Under the pieces are notes generated by a model. That model was not told the origin of the DNA and searched no databases. It saw nothing but the letters and a program-made list of their open reading frames with translations. The translations under genes and the position numbers were made by a program. DNA of 62,211 nt, counting the filler, from Collodictyon triciliatum (lineage: Eukaryota), in NCBI GenBank assembly GCA_043381765.1. It is 5 parts of 5 records of this genome, joined end to end, with 100 filler letters (N's around TTAATTAATTAA, not from the genome) between each part and the next. Parts side by side here need not be neighbours in the genome. Positions count along the whole stretch, not along the records: positions 15,840 to 31,061 come from JBHJMP010000462.1; 4 more parts are not named here. One strand, 5' to 3'. Positions 1,921-61,276 of this stretch are shown one piece after another (within the stretch, counting starts at the first letter, position 1; each line of letters starts with the position of its first letter).

Positions 1921-4900
1921 TCACTTTGATACGGAGAGTATTCTGAAACATCCCCGCCAGAGATAGGAAGAGCTACAAACAAAAGCAATAAGAATAAGAA
2001 ATACCGTCACATGATTAGTAGCATATAAGTAACGCAATGGCCTTTTTGAATTGATAAAAGGAAAAGAGAAAATACTTTCGATGGAGTAGTTTCGCGGAGT
2101 CTTGATTGCGTTGAAAATAAACTTTGGAACATATCTTTCGAAGGTGATTACAAAGTCTTTGATTTTCTGGCGACTAAGCGCAGTGGCCAAGGCGAATACA
2201 ACCAGATTAGAGATGGCAATCAGTATCACAAGGCTATCTCCAATTCGTTGAAGAGTTGCGACATATCCGATGAAAAAAGATAGGGTGATGGTGTATAGGC
2301 TAATCAATTCCAAGATGTTTTCTTCAGGATTTTGGAAAGGCTCATATATATGCTGCACCAATATGCTCAACTATTTGAATGAAGGAAATAAATATTTCTT
2401 GTTTGCTAAAATAAAATAAAACGGATAATTTGAATGGAAAATGATGTTGTAAAAGGGAAACTAAGTATATACAGATCTTATTGATAAAAGGGTTAAATAT
2501 ACTCAAGTCTTACTTGAAGTATGCAAAATATGATAACAGATAGCAATGAAGGGTTGGTATAGGGTATTGTTTGTATGGTGAAGGAGATCAAAAGTCTCCT
2601 TGCAAGTATAACCATTTCCCACCAGTAGTACTTCTGTTATTCGAATGATTAGCATGGCGTCTTCAAGGCGAGCAAAGGAGCGCACTGTATATATACATAT
2701 AAACAATACTTTTTTGTAGGGAAGGTAGAGGAATCCATAACGCCTTGTTTCTGCTTCATCTTTCTCTTGAAGATTGACGTTTTTGAGGATATAGTAAATT
2801 GCGATGGGCAATCCCATTATGTAAAAAACAAAAGCTATGAGCGATACAGCAAGGAGACTACTGTATTCTGCGGATGGAGTGGAACATTGAATCCACGGGA
2901 GTGTACTCAAATACCACTTATCGCTTCCCTTATCATACAAAGTGCATCCAAAGCTTCGAAAAACCTCCAGACCAACTCCGTAGTAATTTGAATGGAGAAA
3001 AAATATAGACAGAAAACATATCTAAGAGAATTTGTTTCAGTCTTCAGTATCTCATTTTAGTACTGTATCACAATTCCTTTTTTCTTTTATCATCATTTCA
3101 ATTACTACTATAATGGTGTCTAGTCGATGAGACGGAAAGTTTCTTACCTGATCGCGATACGGAATGTTTTCAGAAAGCGATGCATAAATGAATAAGAAAA
3201 CGAGAGCGACGCCAACGAGAAGCTTAAAAAGCATGAAAGAGTAGGTAGGGAACGACGTTGCGAGACATTCCTGTTTTAGAATCAAGGTGTTATAAGGTAT
3301 GCAGGATGAGGGGAAAATTCAAGATTAAGAAACCACTGATGCTTCAACAAAGAAAAAAAATGATACGTTGTATTTCAAAACTGAACGACTGATTAATGTA
3401 AATAAAATTAACAATTGAGGGAATCGATGCATTTGAAGGCGACGATGTTATATCAACTATTTGTGATAAGGCCTCTCCGAGGTCAAGTATATTTGTGGAC
3501 AATATGGACAAGGTTTGTAAATGAAACAAAACAATCTTGATTACACCTATATGAAAAATGGTCATGGATTGCGAGGAAGTATTTTTAAAATGAAATTTAT
3601 TAATTTATGATTACCAGTATCTGACGGAGGAGTGTTGATTAAATGGGAGACAAGTAGCACATAACCTATCACCATCATTACAATGACCATCACAACTAGG
3701 ACTTTATTGCACTTGACACAACGATTTCCTTGCACTTGATAATTTTCTGAACATTTAGAACAAAGTCTTTCCTAAAGAGAGAATGAAATTTAGATGTTTC
3801 AGCAATTTTTTTGGATTACATCAAGATGCAAAGAATAAACTTTGAATCGAATAAAGGAAAAAAATGCAAAGAATAGAACCAAAAATGTCACTATCTGATA
3901 TGTTTGCTGGTGGCTTCCAGTGCATATGTAAAAGAAGAAATAAATTTGATTCAGCAAACTTCATATCCATCGCTACAATAACTTTCAGCCGAGTTACTGA
4001 TATGGCATGCATCGTTGAATGGACACGTGATAATCTCTTTAATTTCATCATCTGAATCAAATGAAGGCCAGCAGTCATCCATTACAAATCCCCCAGGGCA
4101 GTTACAATCGTCTGGACAGGTTATACAATCGTTTCTTGCTCCAAAATATCCGGGAATACATCGGCAAAACTCATAAAAGTAGTAAGACGGGTCCATATCA
4201 ATTATACCGCTATTATTGAAAGCTGCGATAAGCGGGCAATTGAACTTTTGGTCCAGAGTGAACTGCTGGTATTGAGGCAAAACTTCAGCGAATGGAGGTA
4301 ATGCTTTTCCCTGCGGATAATCAGTTACCATCGAGTTATTGGTAATGTCTAACGTCTTTAACTTCGTAGCTAGAGCGTATGTATCAGGAAATGCACCAGT
4401 AAACATATTATTTGAGAAATCCATCGTGCTCATTCCTACTGGCAAATACTTTGGTAAAGACCCAGATATTTTGTTGAAACTAACATCAAAATAAAACAAA
4501 GGAATTTCTCCAAGTCCCTCGAATCTAGAAAACTGGTTATGCGACAGGTTCAAAATGATGAGTGATGTCAAATTCTCTACATTTTTGATTGAGCCTGTGA
4601 AATAATTTGAGCTGATATCTAATTTCGTTAAAAGAAGATTCTCTTCGAAAGAAGGCATATCGCCTTGAAATGAATTCGAAGCCACGTCCATAACTGTAAG
4701 AACTGGGCAATGGACAGGAGGAAAAACTCCCGTCAAGTTGTTTCCATCCATTTCTAGAACTTCCAACTTTGTCATGTTCAATAATGGCATGTTACCTGCA
4801 AACCTGTTCCCACTCAATTTGACTGTCCTTACATTTATTAAACTGTCAATCGCATCAATTGTGCCATTCATTTTATTATCTGACAGGTCAAATATGAGAA

Positions 4901-6320
4901 TGGTTGATTGCTGGAAGTTAGGTATTGTTCCTTCTAAAAAATTTCTTCCAATACTGATCTCTTCTATGAACGGATTTTCGTCGAAAGTATGCAGAGTACC
5001 TCGAAAGTTATTTTGTATGAGACCAAGTCCTCTAAGATTTGGCGAGTTTGGAAATTTTGGCAACATGTCATCTAGTTTGTTAACAGAAACATAAAGCCCA
5101 ATCAACAAGGGTGTATTATCGAAAGTGGGCAATGTTCCTTGAAGGTAGTTACCAGTGAATGAAATTGTTTTGATGAGTGGGATGTTTCTAAAATTAGGGA
5201 TTGTGCCTCCGATGATGTTGGTATCTGTGGCAAAGAAGTTCAGCAAAGGATAATCCATGTCTGCATCTGATTCATCAGTAATTCTGTTATATCGAATATT
5301 ATAAAATTCTAGGAGGGGACTCTCTATCATAGTAATAGATCCAATTAGTTTATTGCTCTCGAAACTGGCCAGCCTAATTTGAGTCGAATTGTAAAAAGAT
5401 GGTATTGTTCCTTCCAAGTAGTTTCTTGATAAAATTAAAAGGCTTAGATAACTCATATACTCAGATTCGGGTATTAAACCAGATAAATAATTTCGCTCTA
5501 GGTTTAGCACACGAATGTATGGAAGCTTGAAATTTGGTATTGTCCCAGTAATGTAATTGCTAGAAAAGTCTAAAAGTCGAAGAGTTGAAAAGAACTCAAG
5601 TGCATTTGCGACATCTGGGAGCTTTCCATGCAAATTGTTGCTATGTAGAGTGAGTGCGATAACCGCCTGACAAATGTTTTTTTTTAAAAAAAGAAAAATA
5701 CATAAGGAATTTGAAGAGATTATGTTTTCAAAACATACCGGACTTTGAAACCCTTGAAAGATACACACCACACCGAACCAGTCACAATAAGAAATAGACG
5801 TATTTCCCCAATTCGTCTGGACAAACCAATCTTCTCCACCAAGAGTCGTGTATATCATCATTAGATTTTCGTACGCGCTTGTAGTATTCTCTGTGTTATC
5901 ATTAGAATACACAGTGCTTCGTTGAATTATCATATCATCTTCATCGGGGAAGTTATTATTCCTATTGTCATTCTTTCTTTCATCCAAGTTTGTATACAAA
6001 CGAATGTCTTTGAACTCATCTAATTTACGAAAGAAAAGGATGCCAATGTAAGTTTGTGTGTCAATCATACTAATATTAATTGATAGGGCTTATTTTATTG
6101 GTTATCATAGAAGAGGGGACATAGAAAATACCTTCGAACATGTATGAAATAGCTTATATAAGTTTATTTTATGTGATAAGTTACCAAGGTTCCTTCTGCT
6201 GGGCTGAGAATCGCTTGGGCACGTTTCATAGAAGGTCTCAAGTAAAAGGCTGATGGCTTCTTCGCGAGATATGGACTCCAGTTTATCGACAGAAAGACTA
6301 CATACACTGGCTCCTTGACT

Positions 6321-9714: not shown

Positions 9715-9814
9715 NNNNNNNNNNNNNNNNNNNNNNNNNNNNNNNNNNNNNNNNNNNNTTAATTAATTAANNNNNNNNNNNNNNNNNNNNNNNNNNNNNN
9801 NNNNNNNNNNNNNN
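9715..9814. other. Artificial contig spacer N44-TTAATTAATTAA-N44
   Basis: Six-frame stop linker at 9759-9770 within Ns; genes on both sides are truncated. Confidence 0.95.
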
Positions 9815-13987: not shown

Positions 13988-15407
13988 ATGGCACTCAAGT
14001 TCAACTGGCCTGTGATTCAGTCATTGGAAGAAAACCTCATACACACACTGAATGAGAAACTGGCGGCAGTGGAGAAGCCAGACTTTATCGGGGATCTAGT
14101 GATTCAGGAGATATCGTTTGGTAATAAAGTTCCTGACGTAGAAATCTTGGATATAAAGCTGGTTTGTTTGATTGCGTACATGAACTATCTTTTAAAGTAG
14201 CGTATGGCACGGGTGCGAATATGCTTTTGTGACTCGAGTCAAATACATAAAAAAGCATGATTATTGTTATTTTGCATAAACATCTTTCCGTTAATTCGTA
14301 GCATAATCATGAAATTATATCGTGATAGGTTTTTAATTTCTCTTTCTTTCCTATTGTTGTTGTGTATTGTTGTACTTTCCTTTTGTCTTTAAATCTTTTT
14401 TGATGCCTTTATCCAGAATGAAGAAGCATCTGGAAACGGGGCTGGAAGTTACTCTTATGCACCTGGCCAAGCGGTAAATACCGGCAAAAAGTCTCGACAT
14501 GAACTTCTGACGGCCAAAAAAGCCATGGAGATTGGCATTCAAACCACTGTTCGTGTACTTTACAACGGAGACGCACGATTTAAAATAGCCACAGAGCTCC
14601 GTATCAACAAACCACTACCCAACTTTATTGTCTTCCCACTCACCTTGGCGGTGTTCAATTTCTCCTTCAATGGTATGTAGGATCTAGATTCCGCAACCCA
14701 AGATCAAGACGATCATATTATGCGCCCTTTTAATGGCTTTTTCGTAGTAGGTTCTGCGCAGACTTTTTTTTCCCTTATTCGAAGGTTCTGCGCAGACTTA
14801 TTATTGAAAGCACAAGAAAGAAAACAAACGAAATATTCATCATTAGTTCTAATTAATGCTTTGGTTTGAAATAGCACAACTTGAAATAATATCTACATCT
14901 TCTGCTATCGATATTATATGCAACACATTGCTAGGACAAAACAGTTCCCTAGGTAACTTACCAAAAAAATTTATATGGTTGAATTAGACTTAATTAGCAT
15001 CATATGATGAAGATGTGTAGTCAGTTCAGTTTTTTTTTCGAATCGCGCATAATGCAGACGATTATGCATCACTCAAGTGATACCTTACCCAAAAGAAACA
15101 TCTGATATTAATACTTTTTTTTTTTGAAAATATATCATAGCCTTTCTTTTCTCATCAATTTCATGTAGTTTCAGGCTAAACTTGATCTAATTCCAAGATT
15201 GTATTAGGCCCTGATATACTCAACTTCCGAGTACAAGCAGAACTTGGTGAAGATGGAGAGAAGCTGCCTCAGGGCGTGGAAAATATCGAGAAGTTTGTCC
15301 TTGAGCAACTGAAGCAAATTCTCACCAGCCGGTTCACAATACCTCTTAACAAGCCGACCCTCAAGATTTCATCAGACCCACCACTCCAGAAGATAGCCTC
15401 CTCTTAG
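13988..15407 (+). CDS. MDM12: ERMES SMP-domain subunit Mdm12-like, 4 exons
   Basis: MALKFNW...KPDFIGDLVIQEISFGNKVPDVEILDI; YNGDARFKIATELRINKPLPNFIVFPLTLAV; FRVQAELGEDG...VENIEKFVLEQLKQIL. No TM segment, which favours Mdm12 over Mmm1. Stop TAG at 15405-15407. Confidence 0.8.
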
Positions 15408-15496
15408 CTCAAATACGATACGCATCACGGTTGCAACACATTCTTTGATCTTGTTTCACCGCCTTATCATTTCCCCCGTAAACCTCCTCTTAACCA

Positions 15497-15627
15497 AAAC
15501 ATCAAAGCATCAAAATGTAAAAACATCAAAACATCAAAACATCAAAACATCAAAACATCAAAACATCAAAACATCAAAACATCAAAACATCAAAACATCA
15601 AAACATCAAAACATCAAAACATCAAAA
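15497..15627. repeat. (AAAACATC)n octamer tandem repeat downstream of MDM12
   Basis: About 16 units, near perfect. Confidence 0.95.
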
Positions 15628-15739
15628 TGTAAAAGATGAACAAAACGACCAACACGGTCCAAATAATTGGGTCTGTTTGTGCAGTTTGATTTATTAGACT
15701 TTCAGTTAGCATCTGGCGCATGAGTTGTTGAACAGAAAA

Positions 15740-15839
15740 NNNNNNNNNNNNNNNNNNNNNNNNNNNNNNNNNNNNNNNNNNNNTTAATTAATTAANNNNN
15801 NNNNNNNNNNNNNNNNNNNNNNNNNNNNNNNNNNNNNNN
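15740..15839. other. Artificial contig spacer with TTAATTAATTAA (15784-15795)
   Basis: Same 100-nt spacer design as at 9715. Confidence 0.95.
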
Positions 15840-16307
15840 TTTTCTTTTTCTTGTTTCTTTTTTTGTTTCTTTTTTTGTTTCTTTTTTGTTTCTTTTTTTG
15901 TTTCTTTTTTTATTTCTTTTTTATTTCTTTTTTATTTCTTTTTTTATTTCTTTTTTGTTTCTTTTTTGTTTCTTTTTTGTTTCTTTTTGTTTCTTTTTTG
16001 TTTCTTTTCTTGTTTCTTTTCTTGTTTCTTTTCTTGTTTCTTTTTCTTTTCATTACAAAAAAATTGCCAATGCGAAAATTTTTCATTTTTTTTTTGTTTA
16101 TATTGAACTGGCAACTTGTTTTGCATGTAAATTTTAGGACTTGGTTTGGAGGACAATGGCTCTGTGATATTCATTCGGACTTGTATATTGGTCGATAGGG
16201 TACGAACATGACACTAATATCTTATCACATCAAAAAGGAAAAGTTGCATTCTACACTATGCATTATGTATTTTTCCTGTTAAAATATCAATTAAACCATA
16301 CTTTTAG

Positions 16308-19300
16308 ATGAAGAGCATACGAAACGAATCCAAGGGAAAACGATTCAAAAAGTGGTTACCAGCACCCCGAAAATATATGACCTCTAAGCCACTTGACTTA
16401 ATCATATATGACGAACGCGTTATTCGCATATTTTTGTCCTCTACCTTCCGGGATATGCAGAATGAAAGAGACCAATTTTTCCAACACGGGGCTGTAGAGT
16501 AAATACTTCACATGGTTGAAATTATCATTTCATCTCATACTCTAAACTGTCAACATGTTGATATAGGTTGAAAAAAATAGCCAAATCGAATGGGTTTGAG
16601 CTCGTTTTTATTGATTTACGATGGGGGCTTACGTCGAAAGATAGTAATGAGGGCTGGGTAAACGCACGATTATTTTTCTTGAGAAGCCGTTGCGGTGTTT
16701 CTGAACTATTTGAAACATGTAAGGTTGTTATTCGATGCCTGGACTCTATATCCAAATGCCCATATTTTGTGTGTTCCCTGGGCGCACGCTACGGATGGAT
16801 ACCAGATCAGAGGAAGACTGAGCTCAATATATCGGAGAGGCTCATTGAACTCCAGAAGGAGAAGCATAACGCAACTGTTGATGATATATTCATAGAATGG
16901 AGAGCAGAGACTACGATTCGATTTCCTTTCATTGAGCTCATCCCGGGGCTGAGTGTCACCGAATATGAAGTATTTTTGATCAAATTACCTCCTATTTAAT
17001 ATTATACAGGTCATCCCCAGAACCGAATCTTAATACTGAACATAATTCGCACACATAGATCCAGTTTGCTGCCTTAATATCCAAACCGGCATGCAGCAGG
17101 GTTTTCTTTTATTTCAGAGATACTGAATTTGCCCTATCAAACGCGAAATCTGATGCCGAAAGGATATTGTTTCAAGCAGAGAATGAAGAATCCGTACGTT
17201 TCAGAGGGCGCCATTAGCTTTGCCACTTTTTTTTTCAAAAAATAAATTGCCATACTGCACTAACTAATGCTATTTGATTTTTTAGAGGAAGAGGCAAGAA
17301 AACCTAAAGGATAGAATCAAGAAAATGTACGGCTACGTCACGTATCAAAGACCAAAAGATTTTTCTGACCTTGTGGCGTACCACTTGGCTTGTGCATTCA
17401 AGAAGGATTTCTCTAACATAGTTGTAATTATTTTTATTTTATGGTTATGATAATTATTATGATTCTATTGATATTCATATACTTTTTCATGGGAATTCTT
17501 GATATTTCTATTTATCCATTTGAAGTTACATCTGAATTATAATTGCAAAGGAGAGAGATCCTGAAGACCAAGCCCAACACCAATTTATGATGCACAGACT
17601 TACCGGATTTGCTGGACGCCAGGATCTCATCAGAACCTTAAATGAGAAGGTATGAGGTTCTCATTCAATATTCCGACATAATTGAGTTGATTCAGGTGTT
17701 TTTTAAGAAAAAGTACATATCATATAAATCCTTTGACATGTGCATCATACATGCCAAGATTTGGTCCCGTTTGATGGGCTATTCCTCAAATGTTCTTGTC
17801 TTGGCTGCCCCCTCCGGCATTGGAAAATCGTCTCTAATAGCAGCTACAATAAAGCGACTTTCTGATTTGAATATTCCTGAATTAAAAACAATTTATCACT
17901 TTGTCAGCTGTACAAGCGCTAGTAACTACTTGGAATGGTAGATTCGTAATATTCAAACATCGGATACTAGTGTTTTTATCCAATATATCTAAATATCATC
18001 ACTGATTCAATATGTACACATTTATGTAAAGTATATCTTCAAGATTCTGGAAATTGGCTTTGAGCATTCTTGGGATAGTGAATGATTCAGATGGGGAAAC
18101 CTTGGGTATTTGCGCTACATAAAAATAATCTGATTTTCAATCAGGAGATAGTGATTAATTATGCATTAACCGATAACAAAATTCCTGAATAGAAAATGAG
18201 AAAAGCAGCCTACATGGACTCTTCAATATGATCGAAAAACAAGAGATGTACTTGAATATTTAACATACGAATTACCCACTTTATAATTAAACATATTCTA
18301 AAAGCATACTCATTAGGGTACAGAAAATTGTTTTCATAATTGATGCGGTCAATCAAATTCTGCCTTCTAAAGAAAACCCAGCTCCTCATTTGCTGAAATG
18401 GATGCCGAAAGTAACACCTAAAAACACTGCGCTTGTCGTATCTACTATTGACTCCCACCCGTCATATCAGGTTCGCACTTCAATAATAATCAACGATATG
18501 AATTAGCACATACACGCGTTTGGAAAAAAAATATTTTCTTGCTAACGAATATTTTTTTGCCTATAATGTATTGCAGTCAATAATTAAATGTGGGTCGGAT
18601 GTCGTTCCGATATGTGGCCTCAGCTTAGATGAGATTAGAGAGAGCACAGAGATATATCTCCAACGATTTGATAAAACAATGAGTGAAAAGCAAATGAGAT
18701 TGATTTTGGAGGACTCAAAAGATACAGGTTACATGTTGATGTTATAGCCGACTTTCCCTTTATTTTTTCCTGCCAAAAAATCAACCAAAAGATAACTAAT
18801 TGAAAACCAGTAAATTATTTAAAATGAAAAACTAAAGTTTATAATTTAATTTACTATGTGAAAATTGCTTACTAATCCACGAATTATTTCCGTCCAATTT
18901 TATTAAAATTATCTTTTCGTAAAACCGGCCAGCCCATCCACTTTATTTGAGAGTTGTTTTGGATGAGATACGAATTTATGGTGTCTACGAAAGAATTGAA
19001 TCAGAACTCAGCTGCTTATTAATGACCAATGGTGTTGTAGAACTTTTCTCATTAGTCATAAAGCGATGGCAGGAAAAGTACAATAGGGAAGGTAGAGCCA
19101 AAAGAACAAACACATAACCAGATAAGGATATTTTGTTGTTTTGGATTAACCCATGTCAAAACTTCCCTTTTTTTATTATTATTTTATTTTCACAATCCTG
19201 TCTTTTGGTACCCACATTTAGATTGCGCGATAGTGGACTCTTCCATGAAGGTTTTGTTCGTTTCGAGGATTGGATTGAGTGAACGAGATCTGGATAACTA

Positions 19301-22300
19301 TTTAGAGTTTGTTCTTGGGAATAATTTTGATGTTTCTGAATGGTATAGATAGTTCATCCAAAATAAACATCCCGATAAAAATATGTGCAATAGAGTTTAA
19401 TTTTGCGGTAGCTACTCATCAACAGTTCTGATAGCACCATTTTTTAAAATAAAGGAAATCATTCTTTTTCACCCTGATCGAGTCTCTCTTCGTGAGAAAT
19501 GGAAGGTTTTTTTTTATCATTTTTTCGAAAGAGATTGCCCGCGCTATTGTAGTATTCCTTTTGATAAAATTCTGTCGATCCATATTCTTTGAAAAACTTC
19601 CATGCTGTAATTAGATACATGTTTTTTCATCTTCTCCTTCTGGAGGCAACCGGTGGTTACTTCTTCCCTGATAAGGAAAGCAAGGCTGAGACCCATAGCA
19701 CTTATGGAAAGTGGCTTCTTAGCAATTACTCGGAATCTACTGATGTAGAGGAAGAAACAGCTGCGGAAATTTGTTTTCAGCTCCTTTCTGGAGAAAACTA
19801 TGAGCTATTGGTGGAATATTTAAAGCAGGAGCACGTAATAAATTTTACATGATTTTTTAATTTGTACGCTCCTTTTTTTTTCTTTACAAATGTGATATTA
19901 TACATAAACCTGATGAAGTATGCTAAATATTTTTAAAAAACTTTGTTAATTTTCCGAGGCAATATTACTCTAGCATTGGAATGATTTCATCCACTCTCCT
20001 GATTATTTAACACGAGGTTAGGTTGTTGTACTTATGCTCAACAGTCGCTACCGATACGAATTTTTCAAATGCTGGAGAATAATCAACGAGAAGAAAGTGG
20101 ATGATTATAGAGCCGTGTACAAAGATTATGCTAGAGTATAACGATTTCTATAAAGGATTACTACAAACGTACCTTTTTTTTTTTTTTTACCTCTCCTCTT
20201 TCAACTAACGGAACATTCAGTCATTGAAAAAAATAGGAGACATACTCGTAGAATTCTTTTTTGAAAACCATGAAAATTCCTATTTGGTTCCAGTTTTACT
20301 ACAACGATGCTCCAAAAAGAAATCAGAAGGTTTTACATCGATTTCAAAAACTTTCGGCATCCTATTCTATATTTCATTCAGTAGAAATGTATTTTCTAAC
20401 AAAAAGTACAACTTTAGAATCAAAACTTGCCGATTATCTTACATTGGGTCGAATCTACAAAAATATGCAAAAGTATAACCACTGTAATAGTTACTAAAAA
20501 AAAAAAATTCAATACAAACATCGAAACGATAATATGATTGTAATCAAACTAATCAATATATCTTGTGCTGCAGTTGGAGAGAGGCCAACATCTACTTTGG
20601 AAAATGCCTTGCAATCAGGGAGCAATATAAAATTCAAAATCAGGATAGCCTCTCTTTTTTATATGATGAAATTGGGTGTATCTATCAGTATGAAAATAGG
20701 TTAGGGCTCATATATTACAATTCCATTTAATTTTTCTTAGTTTAAGTTGGTTAGAAAAACTTTGGAATGAATGCCAGGACTTTATTCCTGTAGAATCGAA
20801 GAGGCATTGTCAGAATACAAAAAATCGTATGATCTTCGTATGAAACTTGGCCATGAAAGTGAATTACCCATCGCTGTTTCTTTTGATCGATTCGGTGATA
20901 TATATTTGAAAAGAAAAATGTAATTTGCTACAAATTTAAAACATATCTATGCTTTTGTTATACATGCCCCATGAGATTCTTTTCCATCCATAAGTGTAAA
21001 CTTTGCTTTAGGTATGATGCAGCAATCTCAGAATATCAGAAAGGAATGGACATCCGGACCAAGGAAGTTGGTCCTGAACATCCCCTCGTTGCTCTATCTC
21101 TTCAAAATATTGGACAAGTATTTCTTGAACAGAGGAGGTTAAAAAATTGAATTGGATTGGTTGAATTTTAAACTTTACTTATTCTTTCGAGTAATAATCG
21201 ATTTCTATGTAGTTTTGAAGATTCAAGATTTTACCATGATAAGGCAATTTTGATTTTGGAGAAATCATTCGGAAAGAAGCACCCCTCAGTCGCAGAGGCA
21301 CTCTTGCTCATCTCAAAATTACATTTAGCTGACCAAATGTATTAGATTTTACAATTGTTTTTTTTTCCTTTATTCGATTCAAAGTAGATTTTACAATTGT
21401 AATGCAAAATATGGTGTGTGTATGAAAAAAATTCAATAAGGGGTGGAAAAGAAGATAGAATATGATGATATACTCTAATTATCTTGGAAATTTATTACTT
21501 GATAGGTACAACACCAGCGTACCTTTGCTTGTTGATGCAATTGCAATATTCATTGAAACCATTGGCGAAATTCATCCCAGAGTTGCTGAATGCTATGAAT
21601 TACTTGGAAATATTTATCATGGACAAAAAGAGTATGTCTTTATTTAGAGCCTCGAAAAAGAAATTTAATAAAACTAGTATTATTTTTTAAAAAGTTATCA
21701 AGCTTCCCTGGCTGCATTCATCAGAACTATGGAAATTAAAAAAATCATTCTTGGTAACAAGCATCCTGATTATGCCGCTTCTGTAGAAGATGTTGGTCGA
21801 ACTTATTTTGAAATTCAAAGGTGACAATTAGTTAATAGATATTTTTCTCTTATTTCTCTTTTTCTTTTTCTTTTTCTTTTTTTCTTTTTTCTTTTTCTTT
21901 TTTCTTTTCTTTTTTCTTTTCTTTTTTCTTTTCTTTTTTCTTTTTCTTTTTTCTTTTTCTTTTTTCTTTTTCTTTTTTCTTTTTTCTTTTTTCTTTTTTC
22001 TTTTTTCTTTTTTCTTTTTTCTTTTTTCTTTTTTCNNNNNNNNNNNNNNNNNNNNNNNNNNNNNNNNNNNNNNNNNNNNNNNNNNNNNNNNNNNNNNNNN
22101 NNNNNNNNNNNNNNNNNNNNNNNNNNNNNNNNNNNTTTTCTCTTTTTTTTTTCTCTTTTTTTTTCTCTTTTTTTTCTCTTTTTTCTCTTTTTTCTCTTTT
22201 TTCTCTTTTTTCTCTTTTTTTCTCTTTTTTTCTCTTTTCTTCTCTTTTTTTCTCTTTTTTTCTCTTTTTTCTCTTTTTTCTCTTTTTTCTCTTTTTTTCT

Positions 22301-24688
22301 CTTTTTTTCTCTTTTTTTCTCTTTTTTCTCTTTTTTTATCTCTTTTTTCTTTTTCTTTTTCTTTTTCTTTTTCTCGTGTTTACACGTAATGCTGCCTATT
22401 ATCGTGCACACTCGAAAATAGATATGTCTCATACCAATACATTATTAGCCTGCAATATTCATATATTTCCTCTGTATGATGTTTAAATATCATTTGGTAT
22501 ATAGCTTCACTCATGCAGTCAGCAGTTTTCAAGAAGCAACAATCATAAGAGAGGAGACAAAGACTTTAACATCAATGGCAGATACCAATCAAATTGAAAA
22601 CATCCTTCGACTTCTTACAGAAAAGAATATATTTAACCCAGCACTTGTTTTATACAAGTCTCTGATTGAGCATTTCAAGATTAAAAACTCTTTGAATTAC
22701 CATGGTGTTTGGAATTCTTGTGAAAAAATTAATGCTATTTATGATAGAAATCAGATGCACGACGAAGCCATATCATTTTGGGTGGAAATGAGGGATCAAT
22801 TTACAGAGAAACTTGGATTGACTCATCCAAGAACTCTTAATTCGTGTGAATATCTGTCATATCACTCTAAGAAAATAAATGTAAATATGGAACCTATTCA
22901 ATTTACTTGCGTACAAAAATTTATCGCTGAACATGTACATGATGCGGATGTGGATGTTGGCTGGTCTGAAGAGAAAACAACTGCGGGCTTATTCAAAATA
23001 GTATATATGTCAAGGAGAAACGAATCAAAGGCAAAAGCTGCGTCTTACGCAATTACCTTTCTTAATTTCATGGACCAATCATTCTTTGGAATGGACTTAT
23101 CCAACATTCAAATACAAAATGCAAACCTTTGTAACTCAAACATTGATGGAACTAACTTCATCGGCGCAAACTTGAGCGGAGTTAACTTTGCAGACGCATA
23201 CCTTGGGGACTGTGTTTTCAACAACGCTATCATGGATGGTGTGAAGTTCGGGTTGCGCAGAAAAGAACTCAAAGGCCACAGAAATCACGTTTTCAAGATT
23301 TGTGAACTTCCAGGGCCCAAAGGAGAAAACTGGGTGGCAACTTGCGGTTATGACAAGACTATTCGCGTGTGGGATTTAGTTGTTGGGAAGGAAATAAAGT
23401 TACTAGAGGGCCATGAGGACTATGTTATAGCTATTGTATGTACGGAAGGACCCAACGGAGATTATTGGTTGCTGTCTGGAGGTGGTGACAGAGTTGTCAT
23501 TGTGTGGGACTTAATATCTGGGAATGAAATAAAAAGGCTAGATGGGCACGCAAACACGATATATTGTCTAGCAATTATTCAGGGACCTGGTGGTGAAAAA
23601 TGGCTCGCCTCCGGAAGTGGAGACAACACTATTCGAATCTGGGATATGGCCAACTTTTGTCATATCAAGACACTTAGAGGACACTTAGATTATGTTAGAA
23701 GCGTATGTGCCGTAATTAGGCCCGATGGAAGTCCGTGGCTAGCCTCTGGAGGCGATGATTCTGTTATTAACATATGGGATATGTCAACCTCTGAACGGCC
23801 TCATGAATTAAAAGGCCATTCTGCAAGTGTCACATGCCTTTGTACCCTGAACAAACCTGACGGGGAAGCCCTATTGGTCTCAGGAAGCAGTGATAGGACA
23901 ATACGTATTTGGAATCTAGAGACGCAAAGCCAGATTTTAAAGCTGGAAGGCCATACAAACTACATATGGAGCATATGCACCATCGCAGGACCGCATGGAG
24001 AAAATTGGTTGGCGTCTGGGAGCAGCGACAAGACAGTTTGTATATGGGACCTTACTAATGGGAATCAAGTTAAAGTTTTGAAAGGGCATATCGATGGTGT
24101 TTGGAGTGTTTGTAATGTGCGCATGCGACATGGAGATATCTGGTTGGTGTCTGCAGGTAACGACGGTGTCATTCGCTTATGGGATATCTTCAACGATGAG
24201 CAGACAATATTAAATCAGGAACTTAGGCAAAGGATGAAAAGTGTGGATGAATCGGTTGCAAGTGAAAGTTCAGAGGTGCAATCTACAAGAAGGATCACAA
24301 AGACATACTCTAGTAGAGTAGAATGTGGCCATGTGCAAATCCGAAGCACTGTGGGTTTGAGTTGGTATGACAAGATGCTTCTGCTTTCGATTGGAGCTGT
24401 TTCATTCGACAGTGACTTCATTGCGTACTGTGAATCTGGAGAACTGACCGGGTTTCAAATAGACATGGTCATAAAATGCTACGAGAATGGATGGGGTGTT
24501 GGGATTGACCTGGAGAAGGCAGCGTACTGGGCCAAGAGGAAACAGCTCCTGGTATGCATTTTGCTACGCAGCAAGACAGAACTAAGCTATTTATTTCTAT
24601 ATATATGAATGGAATACGGGAATGGATATTCATAGGCGCCGACATTTTAATTGACTTGAACATTTTGCAGGGATCCAGTGAAGGCTGA
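16308..24688 (+). CDS. NLR-like STAND protein: DUF4062 - NACHT-type P-loop NTPase - TPR array - pentapeptide repeats - 7x WD40 - SEL1-like tail (more than 20 exons; true start and last exon uncertain)
   Basis: DUF4062 motifs IRIFLSSTFRDMQNERD, FIDLRWG, LGARYGWIP and LSVTEYEI. Walker A APSGIGKSSL and Walker B VFIIDAVNQ, then HPLYLRVVLDEIRIYG. TPRs of the GxxHPxVA type. Pentapeptide tract AASYAITFL...MDLSNIQIQNANLCNSNIDGTNFIGANLSGVNFADAYL. Seven GH...WD/WN repeats. Tail CYENGWGVGIDLEKAAYW. Confidence 0.88.
21855..22375. repeat. (TTTTTC)-type polypyrimidine tract with 100-N gap (22036-22135), in the intron between the TPR exons and the WD40 exon
   Basis: Low-complexity T/C tract on both sides of the gap. 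Confidence 0.95.
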
Positions 24689-25274
24689 CGAGAAAAGAAA
24701 AGCATCACCGCTGCTGTTGGCTGCGGACTCTGCTGCGCGGCAATCCCAAAAGCAAAAAGATAACAACCGCATGACCAGGAACTAAAATAAATCAGTTTTT
24801 TTGAAAAGCCTGACTTCACGAAATACTTTAAATGAGTGTGCTGTAGTGTCTGCTCCAAATATATTGGCCCATCGTTCAATAGGGAAGACAATGTTTCGAC
24901 GCAGCAGCAAATGAAAGAGAGGAAAGATAAGCGCAGGAGGTTTTTGTAGCACAGACGCTTGTTCATCTAATTGTGGAAAATAAATATAAATATATAATTT
25001 ATTGAATTGAACATGAGTTTTGTACTAGATACTATATTTTGCACTTAAAATTATAGTATTATATGTTTAGAGATACCCATGTTTATAAATATTCAAACCT
25101 GAATCTTTGTCCTTGAGAATCAACCACTATGCGCGATAGCAACCCATCTTTCTCGCTTGGCTGCTGTTGCAGTGGAATCGAGTCTGTCTCAAAGCAAAAG
25201 TAACGCTGTTTCAACAGCAAAGCGTAGGAGAGCAGCAACACAGGAATCTTCGGACCAAGAGAGAGCCTTGAGCT

Positions 25275-30869
<5,595 letters not shown>

Positions 30870-58951: not shown

Positions 58952-61084
58952 TTACCTATTTTCTCTCCAATTGAGGTCGTAATTGTGCGTTGATGAGGTG
59001 TTTCCGTGGGTTCCATAGTTTGCTTTTGAATTACCGCCTTTGCTTCGATTCCCTGAACTGCCGCTTTGGCTCCCAGTCGGCGCTTGGCTTCCATTCGGCT
59101 TGGGCTGAGACTTTGGACTCACCGGTGACCTGCGCGTTTCGGTTGTGGTTGCTTCCCTGGGCGATTTTGAATCTGATGGTGGATTTGTAGCCATCTCTGT
59201 CTTTTGTTTGGAAGTTGCATCGCGCGGAGAGGTTTGATGGGAGTCTTTCAGAGCGGCTGCGTCCCCTCGAGGTGTCTCTATTTCACGCGAAGGTGGTTCA
59301 GGAACAGATTCCACCGCACTTTCCTTCTTCAAACTGCTTGTTGCAGTTACGGGAGAGCTCTCTGGGGTGCTCAGCTTTATAAATACCATGCGCACGCCTT
59401 GTCGAGATTGATTATTGATTTTTTGTGAGCCCGGCGTGTTTGGAGACTTTGGAGGCAGACTAGAACTGGGTGTTGTAGGCTTTTGATTCGTCGTCGGAAT
59501 ATGCGGTTCGAGTTTTGTCTCCGGTTTGCCCGGCTGCTTGTCCACTTGCTTGGGGTCTGGGGTTCGGGGTTGGGGGTTAACTTTTGTTTCAGACCTACCT
59601 GTTTGCACCGGTGGCTCGACAGGAGGGGTGACTGATTGCCGTGACGGCTGTGAAGTTTGCTGGGGTTGACTTTTGATCGTTTCCTTCGTCTCTGTCTTTG
59701 CTGGTTGAGGTTGTGGGGTTGTCTGTTGGGATGAGGATAGCACCGTAGCTTGCACCTGCAGTTGTGGCTGTGGCTGTGGCTGTTGCACGTTGCTTTCAGT
59801 GCTGGCTTGTGGCTGTGTTAAAGTAGCGGGGGTTGACGGAACGATTGCATTTGGTGTCGTCGTTTGCTTCTGAGGCTGTACGCCAAAAAAGTATGTGACT
59901 GCTCTCTGGGCATAAAAGATGTAGTCGGGATGAGCCGAAAAGTTTAACCGAGTCCACAACTCTTTCACTCGAGTGATGTTTGGATCGAAAGGCACTTTGC
60001 ATTCCTGGAGACTCCATGTCGATGGCCAGATTTCATAGGGATAATACCCCAACAACGGGATGAATTTCCATGTAAAGCTTGGCCCGTATCCCTGACTCGT
60101 CGGGGAATCGGACAAAGCGTGAATACCTGTATTGCCAAAGAGCTCTGGGCTTTGTTTTAGCCTATCCAGGTTAGGGTGATTTCGTGGGACAAACTCTTCA
60201 TAGGGTGGGAAGGCTGCGTCTCGAAGAAAATCAGAGGTCGGGTTGGATAGGTGATGAAAGGTCAAGAACTGGCCGCGGATATATGGTGTTGTGTGATGGT
60301 GGCACAAAATAGGGAACCATAGTACAGAGAACCACGAGTCTGGGTGGATGTCATCACTGGATCCATGAAGAAGAGCCTTCAAAGCTGCACGTGGTGATGG
60401 GAGAGAGTTTGATTCCTCGCCAAAATTCTGGTTTCCTTGGCCTTCTTCGGTGGAGGCCAGATGCATGATTTGTTCATAAAGAGGTCGTCTCATATTCGGC
60501 TGTGTGTTTTCGAGAAACTCATACCAGACAAGTGGGGCATTTTCCTTGCGCTCCTGCCTCTGTGAAGCCTCATCTGATGAGCCTACCAAAGAATTGGAAC
60601 CGGATGCTGCCTGGGCGTAAGTCTTGCGAGAAGCTTGGGAGGAGTTTGCAGACGGCACGTTTCCACGCGCGGCTGCGATGTGTGTTGGGTAAAAGATTTG
60701 CATGGCAGACAAGTAAGGCACAAAGTATGTGTGAACTTTGACGTTTTCGAGGAGCATCGGCACTTCAAAGCCATACGGCCGATCATAGAAGCACCAGACA
60801 TCCGATAGAAGAAAGGCATTTATGGATGGGCTGTTTTCATGGAGCCCTGCACTGAGCGGCTCTGCATTGTCGACTGCGTTATCGCCCGTAGTTGAGTGGC
60901 TGGTCTCTGCTGGTTGCGGAGGAATTCCAGAGTCTTGTGCTTTCGGCTTCCGATTAGTCCGCCAGTCAAAGGAGCGAACCGTAGGTGTGGTGTGGAACAG
61001 AAACTGATCGAGATTGGTCGGATGAGTTTGCTGCGTCGGTGGGTTTGGCAGATCGGTGCTCGGGGAGGCAAGGTTTGCTTGCAT
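58952..61084 (-). CDS. DUF789-family protein with long Gln/Pro/Thr/Ser-rich C-terminal tail; single uninterrupted ORF
   Basis: TNLDQFLFHTTPTV; FLLSDVW...YGFEVPMLL...YFVPYLSAMQIF; YEFLENTQPNMRRPLYEQI; SDDIHPDSWFSVLWFPI; FLTFHHLS; HPDYIFY. First ATG at 61082-61084; an upstream exon cannot be excluded. Confidence 0.85.
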   Translation of the reverse strand: MQANLASPSTDLPNPPTQQTHPTNLDQFLFHTTPTVRSFDWRTNRKPKAQDSGIPPQPAETSHSTTGDNAVDNAEPLSAGLHENSPSINAFLLSDVWCFYDRPYGFEVPMLLENVKVHTYFVPYLSAMQIFYPTHIAAARGNVPSANSSQASRKTYAQAASGSNSLVGSSDEASQRQERKENAPLVWYEFLENTQPNMRRPLYEQIMHLASTEEGQGNQNFGEESNSLPSPRAALKALLHGSSDDIHPDSWFSVLWFPILCHHHTTPYIRGQFLTFHHLSNPTSDFLRDAAFPPYEEFVPRNHPNLDRLKQSPELFGNTGIHALSDSPTSQGYGPSFTWKFIPLLGYYPYEIWPSTWSLQECKVPFDPNITRVKELWTRLNFSAHPDYIFYAQRAVTYFFGVQPQKQTTTPNAIVPSTPATLTQPQASTESNVQQPQPQPQLQVQATVLSSSQQTTPQPQPAKTETKETIKSQPQQTSQPSRQSVTPPVEPPVQTGRSETKVNPQPRTPDPKQVDKQPGKPETKLEPHIPTTNQKPTTPSSSLPPKSPNTPGSQKINNQSRQGVRMVFIKLSTPESSPVTATSSLKKESAVESVPEPPSREIETPRGDAAALKDSHQTSPRDATSKQKTEMATNPPSDSKSPREATTTETRRSPVSPKSQPKPNGSQAPTGSQSGSSGNRSKGGNSKANYGTHGNTSSTHNYDLNWRENR

Positions 61085-61276
61085 CGTGGGGGACAACAGA
61101 GCCTTGTTTTCTGCGCTGGGAAAAGGAGTTTTTTTTTTTATTTCTTTCTTTTCTCTTTCTGAATAGTTCTTTCCTCAAGCTATTCACAAAAAGGGGTGAT
61201 TTTCCTGCAAGTTACAGTATGTTTGAATCTGTTTTGTTTCTACTTTCTGGTCGCCCCTTTCCTTTTTTTTTTTTCT

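What the first reader, a model, noticed from the sequence alone, without database searches (positions are those of the whole stretch)
20574..21820. Six consecutive 126-nt, phase 2-2 exons, one TPR unit each, in an NLR-like gene
Seen in sequence: exons 20574-20699, 20794-20919, 21012-21137, 21213-21338, 21506-21631 and 21695-21820 are each exactly 126 nt (42 codons). All are AG/GT-bounded, phase 2 at both ends, and cut at the same position of the TPR (after the GxxY helix). The units are highly divergent from each other. Any subset could therefore be skipped, duplicated or swapped without a frameshift (64 skip combinations in principle). Established: STAND/NLR proteins use TPR arrays as ligand sensors, and one-repeat-per-exon organisation with exon shuffling has been described for NB-ARC-TPR genes of the brown alga Ectocarpus. 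Inference: this may be a modular sensor-diversification system in a protist innate-immune receptor.
Basis: partly seen in the sequence, partly recalled or inferred. Interest (0 to 1): 0.8.

Follow-up and report, generated by a model that had tools for sequence, protein, structure and literature searches.

The report
One TPR repeat per exon, fixed array
Six equal-sized exons each encode one repeat of the sensor-like region of a large signalling ATPase gene in an unidentified eukaryote, but relatives carry the same repeats in the same number and order, so this looks like an old exon duplication and not a working diversity generator.

Summary
Six 126-nt, AG/GT-bounded, phase-2 exons (20574-21820) each encode one 42-residue KLC/NPHP3-type TPR period. 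They are exons 19-24 of a 25-exon, 1733-aa model (16308-24608) built DUF4062, NACHT-like P-loop NTPase, TPR, pentapeptide, WD40.

No run of this kind arises by chance: it is the only chain longer than two among 54 comparable segments in the window. Four transcriptome-derived relatives (37-45% identical) align across all six exon junctions with one 1-residue gap.

The diversification reading is not supported.
- All five genes have the same number of 42-residue periods.
- The native order is the best of 720 permutations against each of three relatives.
- The units are 10-29% identical to each other and the introns share nothing.
- The window holds no pseudo-exon or orphan TPR exon.

The only informative RNA run confirms splicing in the 5' part. 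Over exons 18-20 it gives only unspliced contigs, so neither these junctions nor exon skipping could be tested.

Most likely this is an ancient tandem exon-plus-intron duplication, now a fixed array. One-TPR-per-126-nt-exon is already published for Ectocarpus NB-ARC-TPR genes.

The parts
16308..24608 (+). Whole gene model: 25 exons, 1733 aa, all introns GT..AG. The 3' end is uncertain and a further short intron near 24552-24670 is possible.
   Evidence: Hand-built model is open throughout. Seven 5' introns are confirmed by spliced contigs of run X1. The model aligns to P0001 over aa 5-1594 at 43% and to P0152 over aa 1-823 at 53%.
16308..16969 (+). Exons 1-3 encoding the DUF4062 domain
   Evidence: Pfam DUF4062 on exon 3: E 1.9e-5, 25.2 bits against cut-off 24.7. 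The homologous part of relative P0152 matches PDB 11gz_A, telomerase protein component 1, at 3.4e-15.
17759..19342 (+). Exons 7-13: P-loop NTPase module (Walker A in exon 7), NACHT/nSTAND1-like
   Evidence: Exon pieces give only weak hits: NPHP3_N 0.0022, nSTAND1 0.0029, NACHT 0.022. Relative P0152 passes the nSTAND1 (32.0 against 27.1) and NACHT (27.4 against 26.7) cut-offs.
20221..20472 (+). Exons 17-18: first, 54-residue TPR-like unit (u0), split by an extra intron. It ends in phase 2 at the same repeat position as the six exons.
   Evidence: It is 61% identical to P0001. Pfam gives no hit.
20574..20699 (+). Exon 19, TPR period u1 (126 nt, phase 2-2)
   Evidence: Two strain SNPs are both synonymous third positions. 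No Pfam hit. The relatives-only HMM is weak at 0.26. It aligns to relatives with one 1-residue gap.
20794..20919 (+). Exon 20, TPR period u2
   Evidence: Relatives-only HMM 1.2e-5. No Pfam hit.
21012..21137 (+). Exon 21, TPR period u3
   Evidence: Pfam TPR_12 3.6e-7, 30.7 bits. Relatives-only HMM 4.4e-12.
21213..21338 (+). Exon 22, TPR period u4
   Evidence: Pfam TPR_12 7.7e-4. Relatives-only HMM 8.8e-9.
21506..21631 (+). Exon 23, TPR period u5
   Evidence: Pfam TPR_12 2.1e-3. Relatives-only HMM 8.3e-7.
21695..21820 (+). Exon 24, TPR period u6
   Evidence: Pfam TPR_12 9.4e-4. Relatives-only HMM 3.7e-11.
21821..22504 (+). Intron 24 (684 nt as assembled), phase 2: T/C-rich microsatellites around a 100-N run at 22036-22135
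   Evidence: In all four relatives u6 runs straight into u7, so no unit is expected to be hidden here.
22505..22880 (+). Start of exon 25: three further degenerate 42-residue periods (u7-u9) with no introns between them
   Evidence: They align position for position with relatives. Pfam does not recognise them, nor does the relatives-only unit HMM.
23055..23294 (+). Pentapeptide-repeat segment
   Evidence: Pfam PF00805, 1.6e-19.
23244..24245 (+). WD40 propeller (seven repeats)
   Evidence: Pfam WD40 2.1e-55 with 7 stretches, and TEP1-type propeller models.

Best explanation
The six exons are the middle of a ten-period TPR array in a large STAND ATPase. Its domain order is DUF4062, NACHT/nSTAND1-like NTPase, helical region, TPR, pentapeptide repeats, WD40 propeller.

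The regular structure is best explained as a relic of tandem duplication of a unit made of one 126-nt exon plus its intron. That would account for one 42-residue period per exon, with a phase-2 intron at the same repeat position seven times in a row. The duplication happened before this gene family diverged.

Since then the units have diverged by point substitution only, and the array is fixed in number and order. The exons are most likely spliced constitutively.

By analogy with other STAND proteins, the C-terminal repeats would hold the NTPase off until a ligand binds. This step is inferred and not shown.

Shown: anatomy, homology, and conservation of unit number and order. Inferred: the duplication origin, constitutive splicing and a sensor function.
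For: - Same length, phase and repeat position at seven consecutive junctions. It is the only such chain in the window.
- Intron density in the TPR part (1 per 126 nt) equals the rest of the 5' gene (mean exon 130 nt). Only the regularity needs a special cause.
- Units are 10-29% identical and the introns share only short low-complexity matches. Any duplication is therefore old.
- Five family members (the model plus P0001, P0183, P0151, P0015) have u0 plus nine periods of 41-42 residues, with no unit gained or lost.
- The native order of the six units scores best of 720 permutations against each of three relatives.
- No orphan or inactivated TPR exon lies in the introns or elsewhere in the 62 kb.
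- The four relatives come from transcriptome assemblies (EukProt Trinity names), so full arrays are present in their mRNAs.
- Run X1 compared with the window: 8 differences in 1191 exon bases (7 at codon position 3, 6 synonymous, both in exon 19 synonymous) against 6 in 303 intron bases.
Against: - No RNA contig shows any of the six exons spliced. The two X1 contigs there (20340-20594 and 20586-20944) run straight through predicted introns 18 and 19 and into intron 20, while contigs of the same run are spliced in the 5' part. Exons 21-24 have no real cover, so constitutive splicing is not shown.
- Three of six donors are not GTA (GTT, GTT, GTG), while all seven RNA-confirmed donors are GTA.
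- The TPR exons are the most divergent part of the protein: 32% identity to P0001 against 41-61% elsewhere. This would also fit a fast-evolving sensor.
- Intron positions in the relatives are unknown, so duplication of exon plus intron cannot be told from intron gain.
- Paralogues elsewhere in this genome could not be searched, because no genome is held.
Confidence: 0.72

Rival explanations
1. One reading: the symmetric exons are used as cassettes. Exon skipping, or recent duplication and swapping, produces receptor variants with different TPR surfaces, as proposed for brown-algal NB-ARC-TPR genes.
For: - All six exons are 126 nt and phase 2-2, so any subset can be skipped in frame.
- The TPR exons are the fastest-diverging region (32% against 41-61%).
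- Weaker donors (GTT, GTG) in three of six.
- Relatives carry Trinity isoform numbers up to i10. This is only a hint, since such numbers also arise from SNPs and retained introns.
- A published precedent exists (PMC3341825; alternative splicing of repeat exons in ROCO genes, PMC11378527).
Against: - Unit number is the same in four relatives and unit order in the three tested.
- No pseudo-exon or orphan exon.
- Units and introns show no recent duplication.
- No skipped joint appears in the one run laid, although that run has no spliced contig in this region at all.
Confidence: 0.08
2. The TPR array was first intron-less, as in the bacterial-type TPR_12 arrays that are the next-best database matches. 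Introns were then gained independently at the equivalent site of each repeat.
For: - The three last periods (u7-u9) and everything downstream have no introns.
- Outside the family, the best matches to the TPR part are bacterial or metagenomic TPR proteins.
- The gene is generally very intron-dense.
Against: - Seven independent insertions at exactly the same codon position and phase are very unlikely without a strong target site.
- The exon-exon junction sequences share no common motif: the exon ends are ATAG, AAAT, GGAG, AAAT, AAGA and AAAG.
Confidence: 0.12
3. The six segments are not functional exons, because the locus is a decaying pseudogene or the TPR part is not spliced as modelled.
For: Only unspliced contigs cover exons 18-20 in run X1.
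Against: - A 5202-nt frame is open across 25 exons.
- The model is colinear with four expressed relatives, with one 1-residue gap in the TPR region.
- Strain differences are concentrated in introns and at third codon positions.
- The 5' exons of the same gene are spliced in X1.
Confidence: 0.04

Closest known systems
Ectocarpus NB-ARC-TPR genes with repetitive TPR exons (Zambounis et al. 2012, PMC3341825; passages read)
   Same: A STAND NTPase followed by a TPR array in which each 42-residue period is one 126-nt exon. All exons are of equal length and in frame, so they could in principle be shuffled or skipped.
   Different: - The NTPase there is NB-ARC; here it is NACHT/nSTAND1-like with DUF4062.
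- Ectocarpus loci carry inactivated TPR exons in introns, and their arrays cannot be aligned between paralogues. Here there are no pseudo-exons and arrays align unit for unit.
- The paper describes each exon as a whole 34-residue TPR plus linker. Here the cut lies inside the motif, at position 17/18 of Pfam TPR_10. I did not compare the Ectocarpus sequences myself.
- This gene adds pentapeptide and WD40 modules.
- Teng et al. 2023 (Plant J) on alternative splicing of these genes is cited in PMC11378527, but it is not held and I did not read it.
TEP1 / NWD1-type DUF4062-NACHT-WD40 proteins of animals
   Same: The order DUF4062, NACHT-like NTPase, WD40 propeller. The DUF4062 of relative P0152 matches a solved fragment of telomerase protein component 1 (11gz_A, 3.4e-15). 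Exon 25 matches TEP1 propeller models.
   Different: This family inserts a ten-period TPR array and a pentapeptide segment between the NTPase and WD40. Its relatives carry an N-terminal CH domain. That NWD1 has this architecture is recalled and was not tested here.
Nephrocystin-3 (NPHP3) and kinesin-light-chain type TPR (Pfam TPR_12, TPR_10, TPR_NPHP3, NPHP3_N)
   Same: A 42-residue TPR period with the G-x-x-HP linker. There are weak NPHP3_N and TPR_NPHP3 hits, and P0015 scores TPR_12 at 4.5e-40.
   Different: The hits to the NPHP3-specific models are below their cut-offs. NPHP3 has no DUF4062, pentapeptide or WD40 part (recalled).
One-LRR-per-72-nt-exon ROCO genes of brown algae (PMC11378527, passages read)
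   Same: One repeat per exon, all phase 2, symmetric.
   Different: A different repeat type and a different NTPase. Shuffling and alternative splicing are reported there and neither is seen here.

Membership tests
Brown-algal NB-ARC-TPR family with repetitive TPR exons | NB-ARC nucleotide-binding domain | tested here: not met
   NB-ARC scores only E 0.17 on the 69-aa stretch around the P-loop and is not among the hits on exon 7 proper. Relative P0152 hits nSTAND1 and NACHT, with no NB-ARC at E<=0.001.
Brown-algal NB-ARC-TPR family with repetitive TPR exons | TPR domain encoded by 126-nt (42-aa) exons | tested here: met
   Six such exons. The paper's figures are 13 of 24 loci and 124 exons.
Brown-algal NB-ARC-TPR family with repetitive TPR exons | Inactivated TPR exons inside introns; arrays not alignable between paralogues (signs of shuffling) | tested here: not met
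   No extra TPR match in the window at i-E<1 other than the gene's own units and one 0.65 hit on the opposite strand at 18634-18675 (tblastn). Arrays of five family members are colinear.
DUF4062-NACHT-WD40 STAND proteins (TEP1/NWD1-like) | DUF4062 domain N-terminal to the NTPase | tested here: met
   Exon 3: 25.2 bits against cut-off 24.7. P0152: 5.8e-11. PDB TEP1 fragment: 3.4e-15 through P0152, and 0.058 directly.
DUF4062-NACHT-WD40 STAND proteins (TEP1/NWD1-like) | NACHT-type P-loop NTPase | tested here: inconclusive
   The window's NTPase is split over seven short exons, and the spliced protein could not be handed to Pfam. The pieces score NACHT 0.022 and NPHP3_N 0.0022. The 53%-identical P0152 just passes NACHT (27.4 against 26.7) and nSTAND1 (32.0 against 27.1).
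DUF4062-NACHT-WD40 STAND proteins (TEP1/NWD1-like) | C-terminal WD40 propeller | tested here: met
   WD40 2.1e-55 with seven stretches; Beta-prop_TEP1_2nd 3.2e-30.
KLC/NPHP3-type 42-residue TPR (Pfam TPR_12) | Match to TPR_12 above the gathering score | tested here: met
   As single exons, one of six passes (30.7 against 30.1), three more have E<0.003 and two give no hit. Colinear relatives pass clearly: P0015 4.5e-40 and P0001 3.5e-40.
NLR in the strict sense (NACHT or NB-ARC plus LRR sensor) | Leucine-rich-repeat sensor domain | tested here: not met
   No LRR hit in any exon of the gene. The sensor-side repeats are TPR, pentapeptide and WD40.

The most novel reading that the evidence does not exclude
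The six symmetric TPR exons are used as skippable cassettes, so that one locus yields several receptor isoforms with different TPR surfaces, perhaps on challenge. This would be a second, independent origin of the brown-algal NB-ARC-TPR strategy, in a NACHT-class protein of another eukaryotic lineage. The unspliced contigs over exons 18-20 and the weaker GTT/GTG donors would then reflect regulated splicing.
Probability: 0.07. Interest if true: 0.6.

Novelty: new member of a known kind. Interest (0 to 1): 0.25.

Why it matters
It adds a second, apparently independent case of one TPR period per 126-nt exon in a STAND ATPase, outside brown algae and with a different NTPase class.

Its main value is as a counter-example. 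A perfectly modular, symmetric exon array can be evolutionarily frozen, with the same units in the same order in relatives only about 40% identical. Exon symmetry alone is therefore not evidence of shuffling or isoform diversification.

The domain combination, DUF4062, NACHT-like NTPase, TPR, pentapeptide and WD40, with a CH domain in relatives, may interest people cataloguing STAND proteins of protists.

Tried and rejected
- **Whole genome:** none is held, so paralogues and orphan exons outside the 62 kb could not be sought.
- **RNA runs:** no RNA holder is listed as such. One guessed-RNA run (X1) held 0.16 of the words. X2 and X3 matched only low-complexity T-runs. X1 gave no spliced contig over the TPR exons and no cover of exons 21-24, so exon skipping is untested. 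The 20197>21358 'joint' has 40 foreign letters between T-runs and I treat it as spurious.
- **ORF-maximising splice model:** it picked junk open frames through introns and microsatellites, and was replaced by a hand model checked by homology.
- **The search for homologous proteins on exon 25 residues 1-245, longer proteins:** nothing.
- **Metagenome locus scans:** two scans, with the family alignment and with exon 25, gave 389 and 42 pattern matches and no confirmed relative. Intron positions in relatives therefore remain unknown.
- **The listing of cluster members:** switched off, so the organisms behind the relatives stay unknown.
- **Earlier findings of the scan:** nothing relevant.
- **Rfam and tRNA scans of the window:** nothing.
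- **N-terminal CH-domain extension of relatives:** tblastn against the window found no match at E<=1.
- **Papers:** Teng et al. 2023 is not held. Supplements of PMC3341825 were not seen, and they may hold the exon phases and positions needed to compare intron placement.
- **Structure prediction:** not run, because the spliced protein cannot be handed to that tool.

Full report
**Observation**

Joined, they are open only in frame +1, giving 252 residues. I built a full gene model by hand: 25 exons from 16308 to 24608, 5202 coding bases, 1733 aa, every intron GT..AG. In it the six segments are exons 19-24, each entered and left in phase 2.

The same cut also ends exon 18 at 20472 and begins the last exon at 22505. 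A phase-2 intron therefore sits at the same place of the repeat seven times in a row.

Stacked, the units show the kinesin-light-chain / nephrocystin-3 type of 42-residue TPR. Each exon ends 4-5 residues after the G-x-x-Y/F/H motif. Pfam TPR_12 matches four of the six exons at the same profile positions, although only exon 21 passes the gathering score and exons 19-20 give nothing.

TPR_10 matches start at profile position 18 of 42. An exon is thus one period but not Pfam's repeat unit. By the usual TPR consensus (recalled) it carries helix B of one TPR, the linker, and helix A of the next.

**Chance and circularity controls**

The window holds 54 AG..126..GT segments open in the phase-2 frame on the two strands. 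Apart from this chain of six, no chain exceeds two.

A profile built only from 24 units of four relatives finds five of the six exons on the + strand in the predicted frame (i-E 1.2e-5 to 4.4e-12). Exon 19 is found weakly, at 0.26.

**The gene**

- Exons 1-3 encode DUF4062 (exon 3: 25.2 bits against cut-off 24.7).
- Exon 7 holds a Walker A loop. The NTPase pieces give only weak NPHP3_N, nSTAND1 and NACHT hits, because the domain is cut into short exons.
- Exon 25 (2104 nt, no intron) holds three further degenerate 42-residue periods, a pentapeptide-repeat segment (PF00805, 1.6e-19) and seven WD40 repeats (2.1e-55).

**Relatives**

An exhaustive HMMER search with exon 25 gave 279,965 hits at E<=0.001, nearly all generic WD40 proteins. 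The top hits align from the TPR tail onward. Two word-based searches added more. The close relatives carry EukProt Trinity names, so they come from transcriptomes.

Against my spliced model:
- P0001 (2619 aa) aligns over aa 5-1594 at 43%.
- P0183 (2401 aa) aligns over aa 2-1594 at 37%.
- P0151 aligns over 428-1597 at 39%, P0015 over 561-1592 at 40%, and P0152 over 1-823 at 53%.

P0152 passes Pfam's cut-offs for DUF4062, CH, nSTAND1 and NACHT. Its DUF4062 matches a solved fragment of telomerase protein component 1 (3.4e-15). The family is therefore a TEP1/NWD1-like DUF4062-NACHT-WD40 STAND protein with a TPR and pentapeptide insert. It is not an NB-ARC protein and not an NLR with LRRs.

**Test of the exon model by homology**

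In a MAFFT alignment of the TPR region, the model and four relatives are colinear across every predicted junction. The only indel within the six exons is one residue in unit 1. A wrong donor or acceptor would have shown as an indel. No unit is missing between exons 24 and 25, so the 100-N run in intron 24 (22036-22135) should hide no exon.

**Test of the diversification idea**

- All five genes have one 51-54-residue first unit and nine periods of 41-42 residues.
- For the six exon units, the native order gives the highest summed BLOSUM62 score of all 720 permutations against each of P0001, P0015 and P0151. The unit-by-unit best match is the diagonal for 5, 5 and 4 of 6.
- By percent identity over nine units, the diagonal is best for 6, 6 and 8 of 9.
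- Within the gene the units are 10-29% identical. DNA identity is 36-48% against 27 +/- 4% for shuffles, and the introns share only short A/T-rich matches.
- No orphan or inactivated TPR exon is found in the introns or elsewhere in the 62 kb.
- There is no paralogue in the window.

This is the opposite of the Ectocarpus picture. There, pseudo-exons lie in introns and arrays of paralogues cannot be aligned (PMC3341825, passages).

- The TPR exons are the least conserved part of the protein (32% identity to P0001 against 41-61% elsewhere).
- Three of their six donors are GTT or GTG, whereas all seven RNA-confirmed donors are GTA.

**RNA**

One run, X1, held 0.16 of the sampled words. Laid on 16300-21840, it gives spliced contigs with GT..AG joints for seven 5' introns and a loose end that looks like a template-switch adaptor (recalled), so it is cDNA.

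Over the TPR region its two contigs (20340-20594 and 20586-20944) are colinear with the genome. They run through introns 18 and 19 and into intron 20. Exons 21-24 have no real cover. These may be nascent RNA or carried-over DNA. They neither confirm the junctions nor test skipping.

X1 differs from the window at 8 of 1191 covered exon bases: 7 at codon position 3, 6 synonymous, both in exon 19 synonymous. It differs at 6 of 303 intron bases. This fits a coding frame under constraint, on very few sites.

**Interpretation**

The regular exon pattern is best read as the trace of an old tandem duplication of an exon-plus-intron unit, older than the split of these family members. After it came divergence by substitution, with no gain, loss or reordering.

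Intron density in the TPR part equals that of the rest of the 5' gene (mean exon 130 nt). Only the exact repetition of position and phase calls for duplication. Independent intron gain at seven equivalent sites is the main alternative. It cannot be excluded without the relatives' genomic loci, which two metagenome scans did not provide.

A sensor role for the TPR-pentapeptide-WD40 part, and any immune role, rest on analogy with other STAND proteins.

**Novelty**

One 42-residue TPR per 126-nt exon in a STAND ATPase is published for Ectocarpus. Alternative splicing of repeat exons is reported for brown-algal ROCO genes and, by citation only, for NB-ARC-TPR genes (Teng 2023, not held).

My searches of the held library for 'DUF4062, NACHT, TPR' and for 'NB-ARC-TPR, exon shuffling, alternative splicing' listed no paper that, by its title or abstract, describes this architecture. 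I did not open those papers.

This is a new member of a known kind, and an instructive negative case.

Noticed in passing
window 16308-24608: Strong 5'/3' asymmetry. There are 24 introns in the first 3098 coding bases (mean exon 130 nt) and none in the last 2104-nt exon, which holds three TPR-like periods, the pentapeptide segment and all the WD40 repeats. This could reflect 3'-biased intron loss or a separately acquired intron-less module.
   Followed up: partly
window 20340-20944: Contigs of run X1 are unspliced here, running through predicted introns 18 and 19 and into intron 20, at depths (4.7-5.9) similar to the spliced 5' contigs (6.0-8.8). An A-run in intron 18 (about 20487-20497) is 4 A longer in X1. 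Internal priming on nascent RNA is a possible cause.
   Followed up: no
window 21843-22372 and about 15840-16100: Long T/C-rich microsatellites (units TTTTTTC and TTTTCTCTT) flank the N run in intron 24. A similar CT-rich array and N runs lie just upstream of the gene's start.
   Followed up: no
whole window: There are 14 runs of N. Six are 100 long. Eight come as pairs of 44 N separated by 12 bases (for example 9715-9758 with 9771-9814, and 15740-15783 with 15796-15839), an odd and regular pattern.
   Followed up: no
upstream of window 16308: Relatives P0001, P0183 and P0152 extend 280-420 residues further N-terminally, and P0152 has a CH (calponin homology) domain there. tblastn finds no trace of this in the window. 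The window gene may lack it, or exons may lie in gaps or be too diverged.
   Followed up: partly
window 16658-16723: Intron 2 (66 nt, confirmed by a spliced contig) is in frame and free of stops. Its retention would insert 22 residues into DUF4062.
   Followed up: no
window 24540-24790: The gene's end is uncertain. A GTATGC donor at about 24552 and a CAG acceptor at about 24670 could splice off the last codons, and the residues just before resemble a Sel1-like motif (the motif is recalled).
   Followed up: no
window 3954-6089 (-) and 58955-61174 (-): Two long open frames without introns: a 712-aa leucine-rich-repeat protein (LRR_1, 5.4e-19) and a 740-aa DUF789 protein (3.2e-33).
   Followed up: no
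window 27013-27597 (+), 15397-15639 (+), 25813-25935: Repetitive coding-like tracts: about 5 copies of a roughly 30-residue unit ending in ...[13 protein letters not shown], tandem KHQNIKTS units, and a long AAT (poly-Asn) run.
   Followed up: no
window 28395-29900 (+): The exons look like replication factor C large subunit, with a BRCT-like stretch and a GPPGIGKT P-loop. This is by eye and recall only; the one piece tested gave no Pfam hit.
   Followed up: no
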